In this document: positions 31,331 to 33,708 of the stretch, one piece after another | Position numbering within the stretch: position 1 is the first letter of the stretch | Layout of the letters: every line of letters starts with the position of its first letter | DNA from: a virus | Reading direction: 5' to 3' (one strand) | DNA length: 64,000 bases | IMG/VR virus record: IMGVR_UViG_3300033485_000002 | Coordinates: 64,001 to 128,000 of that record | Translations under genes and position numbers: made by a program | Notes under the pieces: model-generated | What the model saw: only the letters and a program-made list of their open reading frames with translations | What the model was told of the DNA's origin: nothing | Database searches by the model: none

Positions 31331-31406
31331 GGGCCGTTAGCTCAGTTGGTAGAGCATTTGTCTTACACGCAAGTGGTCGCTGGTTCAAGTCCAGCACGGC
31401 CCACCA
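31331..31406 (+). tRNA. tRNA-Val(TAC)
   Basis: GGGCCGT/ACGGCCC acceptor stem, CT-TAC-AC loop, GTTCAAGTC T-arm, encoded CCA. Confidence 0.95.
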
Positions 31407-31427: not shown

Positions 31428-31456
31428 TTGACAACATCGACCACTTCACCTATCTT
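31428..31456 (+). promoter_or_regulatory. Sigma70-like promoter of the Cas7-like/array operon
   Basis: TTGACA-17 nt-TATCTT, then AGGAGG RBS. Confidence 0.75.
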
Positions 31457-31476: not shown

Positions 31477-32259
31477 ATGGTACGTAAGAAGAAAGAAGCG
31501 GTCGCCGAAAACGAAGAGATCCAGGTGTTTAAGGTCGAAAGGGGGGAAGTGTCGTACTGTGTTTTGGGTCTTACTCCACTGATCACGGAAGCGATGAGCG
31601 AGAAGGTGAAGCGGGAGCTGTTGCTGCCCAAGGGCCGTAAGACCGCTGCCGACAAGGCGGGCACGGCCAAGCACGATGTGCTGGAGGAGTACCGCAACAG
31701 CACCTATCAGGCGAAGGACGATACGTCTCCGACTCGGATCGTGATTCCGTCTACTGCCTTCAAGGGTGCGCTCAGGGACGTGGCGACCGATATCCCCGGT
31801 GCCGCAAAGGCGCAGATCGGTCGGTTGGCGTTTGTTAAGGGCTACCATATCCCCGTGTTCGGGGTGCCGCAGCTCATCATGTCGGTGGTTCGTAACTCGG
31901 ACCAGAACCATACTCCTGACATTAGGACTCGGGCGATCCTGCCTCGGTGGGCCTGCTATCTCACGATCGAGTACACGATCCCGCTGTTGAATGATGTTGT
32001 CGTGACCAACCTGCTGGCCGCTGCTGGCCTGATGCGGGGTATTGGTGGTTGGCGTCCGCAGAAGGGGGCTGGTGACTTCGGGCAGTTCACGCTCGTTGAC
32101 CAGGACAACCCCGAGTTCTTGGACATCGTTGCCACTGGTGGGCGTGAGCCGCAGGATCTGGCGCTGGCCGATCCTGAGTGTTTCGATAGCGAGACGGTGA
32201 ACATGCTGTCGTGGTTCATGGCGGAAACCAAGCGGCGTGGTCTCAAGGTTGTGAGCTAG
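31477..32259 (+). CDS. Cas7/RAMP-like (Vipr-like) RNA-guided effector protein
   Basis: RAMP hallmarks: G.TPL in the first strand, IPSTAFKGALRD, C-terminal G-rich loop AG..RGIGGWRPQKG.G.FGQF; directly upstream of the pentamer array. Confidence 0.8.
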   Translation: MVRKKKEAVAENEEIQVFKVERGEVSYCVLGLTPLITEAMSEKVKRELLLPKGRKTAADKAGTAKHDVLEEYRNSTYQAKDDTSPTRIVIPSTAFKGALRDVATDIPGAAKAQIGRLAFVKGYHIPVFGVPQLIMSVVRNSDQNHTPDIRTRAILPRWACYLTIEYTIPLLNDVVVTNLLAAAGLMRGIGGWRPQKGAGDFGQFTLVDQDNPEFLDIVATGGREPQDLALADPECFDSETVNMLSWFMAETKRRGLKVVS

Positions 32260-32267
32260 GAGGAATA

Positions 32268-32747
32268 ATGGAACACGAGCGGACGAAGATCATTCGGGAA
32301 GAGCTGATCCGCCTTGAGAACTCGCTGGGGACGTTGACCCCGGACAAGGTGGTCGAAGCAGCTACTCCTGTGAAGAGTCCAATCCACCCTTGCTTCGATT
32401 GGGACAATACCTCGGCAGGGCACAAGTACCGATTGGAGCAGGCGCGTGGTCTTATCCAGTCGGTGAAGTACCGGGTTACGACCGAGAAGAAGGTGTTTAC
32501 GGTGGCTCGGTATGTGCGTGACCCGAGGGTGGACCCTCAAACGCAGGGGTATGTCTCGGTGCCGAAGCTGAAGGAAGATCCTGCTGCGGCCCTGAAGGCG
32601 GTACAGTGGGAGTTTTCCAGAGTGCAGCAGGCACTGGAGCGTTTGGAGATCTTGGCCACGGTGCTGGAAGCCAAGTCGGTGGTTACGGCAGCCCGTAAGC
32701 ACATGAAGCGGGTGCAGGCTAAGGTGGAAAAGTCTTTTGCGATCTAG
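32268..32747 (+). CDS. Accessory protein of the Cas7-like locus (159 aa)
   Basis: GGAGG RBS; LTP..VV.AA....SPIHPCFDWD...A..YRLEQAR.LI motif; lies between effector and array. Confidence 0.75.
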   Translation: MEHERTKIIREELIRLENSLGTLTPDKVVEAATPVKSPIHPCFDWDNTSAGHKYRLEQARGLIQSVKYRVTTEKKVFTVARYVRDPRVDPQTQGYVSVPKLKEDPAAALKAVQWEFSRVQQALERLEILATVLEAKSVVTAARKHMKRVQAKVEKSFAI

Positions 32748-32752
32748 CCGAC

Positions 32753-33404
32753 ATTGTCACGGTTTAGCTGTCAAGGTACGATCGGGATTGTTCGGGTTTG
32801 TCAAGGAAAGTCAAGATCTGGCGCGGTCGGGTGAGGCTGTCGTGGTTCGGTCAGATCCGTTCAGGGATGTTAGGGAAAGATATGGTGTGTTCTGGTGGGG
32901 GAAGATTCGGATGGGCAAGGTGAGGCTGTCCAGGTAAGGTTCGGTGGGATGGGGCGTGTTACGGCGACTTAGGGTTAGTCATGGGCAGGTTCGGCTGTCA
33001 CGGTATGGCACGTTAGTTTCGGGTTAGTCAAGGACGGGAACGGTGCGATCAGGTCTGATCCGGTCTGACTGTCACGGTACGTGTCGTAGGGTAGGAAAAG
33101 GCAAGGCTCAGCATGTTAGGGTTCGGTGAGGCTAGGCTGTCACGGTGTCGTGAGGATGGGACCGGCAGGGCCGGGTTCGTTGCTGGCGTGGCATATTTTG
33201 GCGGGGCTTGGCTGTCATGGTGATTTTTGCGTTCAGGCGTGATTGGGCCTGACAGGATTCGATTAGGCAGGGCCGGGTAAGGTTTGGCTGTCACGGTGGG
33301 ATATGGACGGATCCGGAAGGGAGAGATGCGTTCTGGCGGGGTCTGGTGGGGCTGGGTGAGACCGGGTGGGACGAGATTTGGTAAGATCCGGTCAGGTCTG
33401 ACTG
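32753..33404 (+). ncRNA. Gapped-guide (VIPR-like) array: 8 units of (G/A)(G/A)CTGTC-NN handle plus G-led pentamers
   Basis: Handles at 32766, 32835, 32924, 32993, 33067, 33135, 33210 and 33286 (spacings 69, 89, 69, 74, 68, 75, 76, i.e. 9+5n with small indels); 5-nt periodic G between handles. Confidence 0.85.
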
Positions 33405-33411
33405 GTATGTT

Positions 33412-33487
33412 GGGGGAGTAGCCCAACGGTAGAGGCGGAGGACTTAAAATCCTTTCAGTGTGGGTTCGAATCCCACCTTCCCCACCA
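33412..33487 (+). tRNA. tRNA-Leu(TAA), short variable arm
   Basis: GGGGGAG/CTTCCCC acceptor stem, GAGGA-CT-TAA-AA-TCCTT, GTTCGAATC, CCA. Confidence 0.9.
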
Positions 33488-33497
33488 ATGTGCTAAG

Positions 33498-33568
33498 GGG
33501 GGTATCACTCAGTGGCCGAGTAGCGGGCTTTTAACCCGCCTACCAGGGTTCGATTCCCTGTGCCCCCA
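33498..33568 (+). tRNA. tRNA-Lys(TTT)
   Basis: GGGGGTA/TGCCCCC acceptor stem, GCGGG-CT-TTT-AA-CCCGC, GTTCGATTC; no encoded CCA. Confidence 0.85.
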
Positions 33569-33708
33569 CTTTTGGAGCTAATATGGACGAGCTTAATCAA
33601 AATGTTGAACGGTTGCTGTGGATCTGGAGTCTGCTCTGCCTCAGCGTAACTGTAGTGGGTTTGTTTATTTGGTGGATAGGGAGATATCGTGATAAGTAGG
33701 AGATAGGA

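What the first reader, a model, noticed from the sequence alone, without database searches (positions are those of the whole stretch)
32924..33404. Guide dinucleotides decode to tyrosine-integrase catalytic motifs when the codon wobble base is skipped
I read each NN as codon positions 1-2 (target = NNx NNx...). Four units independently give motifs of tyrosine recombinases: unit 8 gives the catalytic-Arg box, unit 7 the HxxR box, unit 6 the 'ERLGH' box and unit 3 the catalytic-Tyr box. Some read in sense and some in antisense, consistent with a dsDNA target. The skipped base falls on the third codon position in each case, so synonymous mutations could not escape and one guide could cover a whole integrase family. 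No tyrosine recombinase is encoded in this window. Inference: the phage uses the system against prophages, satellites or ICEs that depend on integrase. Caveat: degenerate decoding in two orientations inflates chance matches, but repeated hits to one protein family are hard to explain by chance.
Basis: inference. Interest (0 to 1): 0.98.

Follow-up and report, generated by a model that had tools for sequence, protein, structure and literature searches.

The report
Phage VIPR guides aimed at integrases
A large freshwater or wetland phage carries a CRISPR-related VIPR system, and three of its eight guide RNAs, read with the published skip-every-third-base rule, spell the catalytic motifs of phage-type tyrosine integrases, so the phage probably silences the integrase of rival mobile elements in a way that silent mutations cannot escape.

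Summary
The stretch is the guide array of a VIPR system, a kind first described in 2026 preprints. The system consists of a Cas7-like gene, a conserved accessory gene, and 8 units of G-[G/A/T]-Y-NN pentamers.

Read as NNx, the guides decode as follows:
- Unit 8 (first 13 pentamers, sense) gives GMRPSEALGLGW[D/E].
- Unit 7 (antisense) gives [KN][FL]RLYDLRHT[C/W]AS.
- Unit 6 (antisense) gives NPKITAERLGHST.

Real integrase genes carry all three sites in codon phase. A Gemmatimonadales MAG gene matches at 26/26, 22/26 and 21/26 NN bases. A metagenomic island integrase beside tRNA-Ser matches at 23/26, 22/26 and 23/26. Thousands of shuffled guides never reached these values. Only a 1-nt skip gives these matches.

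Unit 3, the claimed tyrosine box, is not supported. Units 1, 2, 4 and 5 and the tail of unit 8 have no target.

Coverage is one phage-type integrase subfamily, not all tyrosine recombinases. No perfect target and no host were found.

An October 2026 preprint already shows a VIPR guide on a satellite's serine-recombinase active site. This case is therefore a new member of a known kind, notable for three guides on tyrosine-integrase motifs. The same scan has noted integrase-spelling VIPR guides in another genome.

The parts
31331..31406 (+). tRNA-Val(tac), left flank of the locus
   Evidence: ARAGORN and Rfam
31428..31456 (+). promoter-like site (TTGACA-17-TATCTT) upstream of vipr
   Evidence: Consensus scan, 10 of 12 positions; not evidence of function.
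31477..32259 (+). vipr: 260-aa Cas7-like RAMP protein (P0001)
   Evidence: No Pfam family. 1,272 homologues. AF2 model with pLDDT 80; Foldseek PDB gives 95 hits at E<=0.001, and the listed ones are Csm3, Cmr4, type VII Cas7 and Cas7-11. 80 related IMG/VR loci nearly all carry pentamer arrays downstream.
32268..32747 (+). vap-like accessory gene (159 aa from the ATG; the ORF as listed starts at GTG 32211)
   Evidence: A homologue lies directly downstream of vipr on the same strand in 79 of 80 related loci. Matches phrog_15946, function unknown. AF2 pLDDT 91, no significant fold match.
32755..33409 (+). vrRNA array: 8 units separated by (G)GCTGTCAC-type boundaries, plus one short leading copy of the boundary at 32755
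32775..32834 (+). unit 1, 12 pentamers, target unknown
32844..32923 (+). unit 2, 16 pentamers, target unknown
32933..32992 (+). unit 3, 12 pentamers; the claimed Tyr-box guide; no target found
   Evidence: Best 15-16/24 on integrase loci, equal to shuffles. No exact 9-NN hit in IMG/VR.
33002..33066 (+). unit 4, 13 pentamers, target unknown
   Evidence: The 9-NN core hits one repeated non-coding 38-mer only.
33076..33134 (+). unit 5, 12 NN with one 4-nt unit, target unknown
33144..33209 (+). unit 6, 13 NN (one 6-nt unit); antisense guide to the NPK(I/V)..ERLGHS(T) codons, which include the conserved His of LGH
   Evidence: 21/26 on L006 and 23/26 on L012; 12/13 at protein level; shuffles never reach these values.
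33219..33285 (+). unit 7, 13 NN (one 7-nt unit with a TTTTT scaffold); antisense guide to the R(L/P)YDLRHTCA(S/T) codons (box II, second catalytic Arg)
   Evidence: 22/26 on L006 and L012, 23/26 on L010 and L011. In 401 Gemmatimonadota genomes there were 2 hits at <=3 mismatches, both at this motif, and 0 for the reversed control pattern.
33295..33359 (+). unit 8, first 13 pentamers; sense guide to the GMRPSEALGLGW(D/E) codons (box I, first catalytic Arg)
   Evidence: The exact 10-NN core gives 4 IMG/VR hits, all in phase at TGMRPSEALGL of integrase genes. 26/26 on L006 and 23/26 on L012.
33360..33409 (+). unit 8, last 10 pentamers; no target found
33412..33569 (+). tRNA-Leu(taa) and tRNA-Lys(ttt); the first starts 2 nt after the array

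Best explanation
This is a VIPR locus: vipr, vap and a vrRNA array. By analogy with the characterised systems, the + strand array is transcribed and cut into guide RNAs. Vipr protomers polymerise on each guide, hold the G-[G/A/T]-Y triplets and present the NN pairs. The filament then binds double-stranded DNA whose sequence reads NNxNNx, and represses transcription.

Three guides are complementary, under the 1-nt skip rule and in codon phase, to the coding sequence of the three most conserved catalytic motifs of a phage-type tyrosine integrase subfamily. These are unit 8 (first 13 pentamers), unit 7 and unit 6, and the motifs are box I Arg, box II (Y/H)xLRH and LGH.

The most likely role is to silence the integrase gene of a resident or co-infecting integrative element, whether prophage, satellite or island. 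That would block its excision or integration during infection. Because only codon positions 1-2 of catalytic residues are read, silent mutations cannot escape.

Shown here, all in silico: the locus anatomy, the RAMP fold, the conserved synteny, the decoding, the statistics, the skip rule, the phase and the lack of self-targets.

Inferred: transcription and processing of the array, RNP formation, repression, and the identity of the natural target and host.
For: - System membership. P0001 has a Cas7-like fold. vap synteny holds in 79 of 80 loci. Pentamer arrays lie downstream of vipr in nearly all 80 relatives. The pentamer grammar is regular.
- Matches to real genes. L006 integrase scores 26/26, 22/26 and 21/26; L012 and L013 score 23/26, 22/26 and 23/26.
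- Nulls. p<2e-4 per guide under three nulls, and p<=5e-4 at protein level.
- Skip rule. Skip 1 gives 21-26/26, against 14-17/26 for skips of 0, 2 or 3.
- Phase. 46 of 46 hits at >=80% lie in phase on the expected motif and strand.
- Conservation. The footprints rank 16th, 23rd and 46th of 362 windows by conservation in 120 homologues.
- DNA rather than mRNA. Guide 8 has mRNA sense and guides 6 and 7 are antisense, so only DNA can be the common target.
- Target context. The matched integrases sit beside tRNA-Ser at the edge of an island with HTH_17, small-terminase-like and capsid-like genes.
- No self-target above shuffles in the phage's 168 kb.
- Literature. The 1-nt skip rule, wobble alignment and repression are published, as is a VIPR guide on a satellite recombinase's active-site codons that blocks excision.
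Against: - No integrase with near-perfect identity to all three guides was found. The best candidates have GC 66-68% against 52.5% for the phage. They use CGN where guide 7 implies AGR, so they are probably relatives of the target and not the target itself.
- Exact 10-NN cores of U6 and U7 have no hit in IMG/VR.
- Five of the eight units and the tail of unit 8 have no target.
- How many mismatches this Vipr tolerates is unknown.
- This array has only a 9-nt boundary between units in place of the roughly 40-nt 3' tail of the characterised type II vrRNAs. That boundary is not shared by relatives, so processing is unknown.
Confidence: 0.72

Rival explanations
1. The guides regulate the phage's own integrase, encoded in the part of the genome missing from this record. 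VIPR would then act as a lysis/lysogeny switch, not as a weapon.
For: The record is estimated to be 77% complete and is linear, so an integrase could lie in the missing part.
Against: No PF00589 match above the cut-off and no self-target above shuffles in 168 kb. The published surveys found no self-targeting guides at >=80%. None of 2,178 guide windows from 80 related loci matches this integrase subfamily, so integrase targeting is not a built-in trait of the clade.
Confidence: 0.08
2. The guides aim at integrases of host defence islands or integrative conjugative elements, not at phage-like rivals. Blocking them would keep islands from excising or moving during infection.
For: The same subfamily occurs as several copies per genome, including two adjacent copies on one contig of G240. 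An integrase-level guide cannot tell element types apart.
Against: The one island whose content is visible (L012) carries terminase-like and capsid-like genes. The published natural targets are satellites and prophages.
Confidence: 0.15
3. Chance: degenerate decoding in two orientations over eight units throws up integrase-like peptides.
For: Holds for unit 3 and for the weak unit 4 and unit 1 resemblances, which are at the level of shuffles.
Against: For units 6, 7 and 8, no shuffle of 5,000 under each of three nulls reached the observed DNA identity. Two of the guides were confirmed on a gene found with the third, and all three on a gene found by protein homology alone.
Confidence: 0.01

Closest known systems
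VIPR systems (Vipr + vap + vrRNA), bioRxiv 10.64898/2026.04.26.720920 and 10.64898/2026.04.26.720927; the characterised type II is from Escherichia phage SUSP1
   Same: - A minimal Cas7-like RAMP gene followed by an accessory gene and non-coding arrays of GGY/NN pentamers.
- Phage-borne.
- The 1-nt skip rule.
- Targets in coding sequence on either strand, with the skipped base at the wobble position.
- No self-targets.
   Different: - P0001 gave no tblastn match to SUSP1 in the phage collection. Its only hits there, in Gordonia and Mycobacterium phages, are at 27-29% identity.
- The scaffold is looser: GGY in 56 of 111 units, with GAY, GTY and GGA common.
- Units are separated by a 9-nt GGCTGTCAC boundary, not a roughly 40-nt structured tail.
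- One guide has 23 pentamers.
- Which of the seven published types it belongs to could not be determined.
SUSP1 vrRNA4 on the F5 satellite excision recombinase, bioRxiv 10.64898/2026.10.15.759431
   Same: A phage guide reads codon positions 1-2 of active-site residues of a rival element's recombinase. Escape would therefore need changes to the catalytic core. The published outcome is a block of satellite excision.
   Different: The published target is a serine recombinase, hit by one 6-unit footprint, with experimental proof. Here the target is a tyrosine integrase, hit by three 13-unit guides on three separate catalytic motifs, with no experiment and no exact target.
Class 1 CRISPR backbones (Cas7/Csm3/Cmr4 on crRNA)
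   Same: The predicted fold of P0001 matches Cas7-family RAMPs. Both involve periodic protein binding along a guide.
   Different: No CRISPR repeats, no cas1/cas2 or other cas genes, a 5-nt guide period with only 2 read bases, and a 3-nt target period.

Membership tests
VIPR system | Vipr protein: small RAMP (RRM core, G-loop, thumb) related to Cas7 | tested here: met
   AF2 pLDDT 80. 95 Foldseek PDB hits at E<=0.001; the listed ones are all Cas7-type RAMPs, best E 5e-6. The G-loop and thumb were not inspected residue by residue.
VIPR system | Adjacent vap accessory gene | tested here: inconclusive
   A conserved 159-aa gene follows vipr in 79 of 80 related loci. Homology to published vap1-6 could not be tested. 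The fold search gave only weak winged-helix-like rows.
VIPR system | vrRNA of tandem pentamers with a constant GGY-like triplet and a hypervariable NN (at least 4 units) | tested here: met
   8 units of 12-23 pentamers. Position 1 is G in 95%, position 3 is a pyrimidine in 86%, and NN composition is even.
VIPR system | Targets follow the 1-nt skip rule | tested here: met
   21-26/26 at skip 1 against 14-17/26 at skips 0, 2 and 3 on two integrase genes.
VIPR system | Targets lie in coding sequence on either strand with the skip at the wobble position; no self-targets | tested here: met
   phase and strand; own genome.
VIPR system | Conserved structured 3' tail on each vrRNA (type II) | tested here: not met
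   Only a 9-nt boundary separates units, and relatives do not share it. The discovery paper describes other array architectures, including staggered arrays without such tails. This speaks against type II, not against VIPR.
VIPR system | vrRNAs expressed, bound by Vipr, and repressing the target | not testable with these tools
   No RNA run holding the locus is listed.
Tyrosine recombinase (as the target family) | Guide footprints cover codons of catalytic residues: box I Arg, box II Arg in (H/Y)xLRH, His of LGH, and the Tyr nucleophile | tested here: met
   Met for three of the four. R204, Y318/R321/H322 and H344 of P0003 lie inside the U8a, U7 and U6 footprints. The Tyr box (Y354) is not covered by any guide.

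The most novel reading that the evidence does not exclude
The three guides are not copies of one rival's gene. They are family-level guides tuned to the amino-acid-determining bases of catalytic motifs. One phage array would then disable integration and excision of many unrelated elements that use this integrase subfamily, while sparing housekeeping Xer-type recombinases. That would make it a broad-spectrum, escape-proof anti-mobile-element weapon.
Probability: 0.3. Interest if true: 0.7.

Novelty: new member of a known kind. Interest (0 to 1): 0.5.

Why it matters
VIPR was described only in 2026. Its natural targets are known for a few Escherichia and Pseudomonas clades. The one worked-out case hits a serine recombinase with a single short footprint.

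Here an uncultivated 168-kb phage from freshwater and wetland samples points three long guides at three catalytic motifs of tyrosine integrases, the enzymes that most prophages, satellites and islands depend on. This suggests that disabling a rival's recombinase at its catalytic codons is a recurrent VIPR strategy across recombinase classes.

It also gives concrete sites for testing how many mismatches a Vipr filament tolerates, and therefore how broad one guide can be.

Units of 4, 6 and 7 nt occur in the guides without shifting the 3-nt target register. That is a testable structural point.

Tried and rejected
- **Unit 3 as a Tyr-box guide.** No support in L006, L012 and L013, 80 metagenomic integrase loci, or 26 PF00589 loci of five genomes. 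No exact 9-NN hit in IMG/VR.
- **Exact-core scans that found nothing.** U7 10 NN, U6 10 NN and U8 positions 12-21 in IMG/VR. U8 12 NN in metagenome contigs.
- **An earlier U7 9-NN core.** It gave two IMG/VR hits that are not in integrases and contain stops, so they are chance hits.
- **U4 9-NN core.** 52 IMG/VR hits, all the same 38-nt non-coding sequence in isolate proviruses. It is not a tRNA and not in Rfam, and overall identity is 20/26. I counted it as one chance locus.
- **Guides against the vipr loci of 80 relatives.** All at the level of shuffles.
- **Guides of 80 related arrays against this integrase subfamily.** None of 2,178 windows reached 9/10.
- **Weak best hits of U3 and U1 on the tRNA-Ser next to the integrases.** At chance level.
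- **Proteins of the L012 island against the phage genome.** No tblastn hit, so there is no sign of shared structural genes.
- **Contigs of four runs that hold the phage, laid on the L006 integrase.** Only tRNA-Ser and short motif pieces aligned; no close relative.
- **RNA evidence.** No RNA holder is listed for the locus.
- **Other searches with no result.** Rfam finds nothing in the array. Pfam finds nothing in P0001 or P0002. The PDB sequence search gives nothing. The phage has no close relative in the phage collection.

Full report
**What is there.** Between a 159-aa ORF that ends at 32747 and tRNA-Leu at 33412 lies a 655-nt non-coding stretch. It is made of eight units, each opened by (G)GCTGTCAC-type sequence and followed by 12-23 five-base repeats.

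In 111 pentamers, position 1 is G in 106, position 2 is G, A or T (72/21/18), and position 3 is a pyrimidine in 95. Positions 4-5 have even base composition.

Units 1-4 and 8 are in perfect register. Unit 5 has one 4-nt unit, unit 6 one 6-nt unit and unit 7 one 7-nt unit.

Upstream on the same strand are a 260-aa ORF (P0001, 31477-32259) and the 159-aa ORF. tRNA-Val precedes the locus, and tRNA-Leu and tRNA-Lys follow it.

The window is part of a 168,260-bp IMG/VR virus record estimated at 77% complete. GC is 52.5%. The DNA is held by freshwater and wetland metagenome runs of four studies.

**What kind of system.** VIPR systems consist of a phage-borne RAMP protein (Vipr), an accessory gene (vap) and vrRNAs of alternating GGY/NN. 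The guides recognise dsDNA with one skipped base between NN pairs, the skip mostly falls on the codon wobble position, and the outcome is transcriptional repression.

The locus fits this description:
- P0001 has no Pfam family but 1,272 homologues.
- Its AlphaFold model (pLDDT 80) gives 95 Foldseek PDB hits at E<=0.001. The listed ones are all Cas7-type RAMPs: Csm3, Cmr4, type VII Cas7 and Cas7-11.
- In 80 related IMG/VR loci, + strand pentamer runs cluster about 500 nt downstream of the gene.
- A homologue of the 159-aa ORF follows the gene in 79 of the 80 loci.

The accessory protein folds confidently (pLDDT 91) but has no significant structural match. The weak rows are mostly winged-helix regulators.

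**The decoding.** I read each NN as codon positions 1-2. For units 6 and 7, I treated the odd-length unit as a longer scaffold.
- Unit 8 in sense gives G[IM]RP[RS][DE]ALGLG[CW][DE]...
- Unit 7 in antisense gives [KN][FL]RLY[DE]L[RS][HQ]T[CW]AS.
- Unit 6 in antisense gives [KN]P[KN][IM]TA[DE]RLG[HQ]ST.
- Unit 3 in sense gives [KN]SGGVT[DE][RS]Y[IM][HQ]S.

**Are real genes hit?**
- The exact 10-NN core of unit 8 occurs four times in IMG/VR, each time in phase at TGMRPSEALGL of an integrase gene.
- The 12-NN core occurs once in 185,579 species genomes, in an integrase of a Gemmatimonadales MAG (L006).
- On that gene the two other guides, which played no part in finding it, match at 22/26 (unit 7) and 21/26 (unit 6). 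Unit 8's first 13 pairs match at 26/26. All are in phase.
- A relative found by protein homology alone (P0005, 68% identical; loci L012 and L013) matches at 23/26, 22/26 and 23/26.
- In 401 Gemmatimonadota genomes, unit 7 with up to 3 mismatches hits twice, both times at RLYDLRHTCAT-type codons of integrases. The reversed control pattern hits nowhere.

**Controls.** On the L006 gene I ran 5,000 guide shuffles under each of three nulls: NN order, NN drawn from the array's pool, and base shuffle. They reached at most 18-21 of 26. At protein level, against 120 homologous integrases, the observed scores are 12/13, 11/13 and 13/13, against shuffle maxima of 9-10. Only the 1-nt skip works: 21-26/26, against 14-17/26 for skips of 0, 2 or 3. 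The phage's own 168 kb has no match above shuffles and no PF00589 match above the cut-off.

**Where on the protein.** In P0003 the footprints are residues 202-214, 314-326 and 334-346. They contain the box I Arg, the (Y/H)xLRH Arg/His and the LGH His. Among 362 windows of 13 residues they rank 46th, 23rd and 16th by conservation across 120 homologues. The fourth conserved peak, around the Tyr nucleophile, is not covered by any guide.

**Unit 3 and the rest.** Unit 3 never exceeded shuffled guides on any integrase set, and its core has no exact hit in IMG/VR. Units 1, 2, 4 and 5 and the last ten pentamers of unit 8 likewise have no target, including in the vipr loci of 80 relatives. The 52 IMG/VR hits of a unit 4 core are a single identical non-coding 38-mer.

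**Breadth.** In 80 metagenomic integrases only 34-45% identical to P0003, >=80% NN identity is reached by unit 6 in 30, unit 7 in 13 and unit 8a in 3. Shuffled guides reach it in at most 0.06% of trials. All 46 hits are in phase on the expected motif and strand.

These loci were fetched with peptide patterns that overlap the unit 6 and unit 7 sites, so those two rates are inflated. In five Gemmatimonadota genomes, the guides hit only the Phage_int_SAM_3-type subfamily and not the highest-scoring PF00589 members. Coverage is therefore a subfamily, not all tyrosine recombinases.

Integrase targeting is not a trait of the Vipr clade. None of 2,178 guide windows from 80 related arrays matches this subfamily.

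**What the target element may be.** The matched integrases lie next to tRNA-Ser(tga). In L012 the integrase is followed by an HTH_17 gene, small ORFs, a weak small-terminase match and a weak capsid match. That is a small prophage or capsid-forming satellite-like island. Its proteins have no tblastn match in the phage.

These genes are probably relatives of the true target. Their GC is 66-68%, and they encode the Arg of DLRHT with CGN where guide 7 implies AGR.

**Mechanism and its rivals.** Guide 8 has the sense of the mRNA and guides 6 and 7 are antisense, so the common target must be DNA.

The best reading is repression of a rival element's integrase gene at catalytic codons. This parallels the published SUSP1 guide, which sits on active-site codons of a satellite's serine recombinase and blocks excision.

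Self-regulation of an integrase in the missing 23% of the genome cannot be excluded, but nothing supports it. Chance is excluded for units 6-8.

**Novelty.** The system type, the skip rule, the wobble logic and recombinase targeting are all in print. New here are the tyrosine-integrase target, three long guides on three separate catalytic motifs, a looser scaffold with a 9-nt boundary between units, and odd-length units that keep the target register. I did not test that.

Noticed in passing
window 33184; 33224-33228; 33086-33089: Odd-length units occur inside guides: 6 nt in unit 6, 7 nt with a TTTTT scaffold in unit 7, and 4 nt in unit 5. In units 6 and 7 the NN pairs on both sides still match integrase codons at uniform 3-nt spacing, so the extra bases seem to be absorbed by the scaffold.
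   Followed up: partly
window 31331-31406 and 33412-33569: The VIPR locus is bracketed by tRNA genes, and the array ends 2 nt before tRNA-Leu. tRNA processing might define the 3' end of the last guide. Only 1 of 80 related loci has any tRNA.
   Followed up: partly
G000:C1:3855-3929 (outside the window; locus L001): A small open frame carries a box-I-like peptide, HLGMRYSEIMSL (13.8 bits to PF00589). It is not an integrase and is not matched by guide 8.
   Followed up: partly
L174:4783-4808 and 51 other IMG/VR loci: An identical 38-nt non-coding sequence recurs in 52 proviruses of isolate genomes and matches the 9-NN core of unit 4. It is not a tRNA and not in Rfam. Its nature is unknown.
   Followed up: partly
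L012:7037-16385: An island next to tRNA-Ser(tga) carries an integrase, an HTH_17 gene, a weak small-terminase match and a weak capsid match. It may be a small prophage or a capsid-forming satellite in a high-GC bacterium.
   Followed up: no
L028, L033, L036, L046, L057, L068 (upstream of vipr): Several related loci carry a second pentamer array upstream of vipr as well as the downstream one, as described for SUSP1.
   Followed up: no
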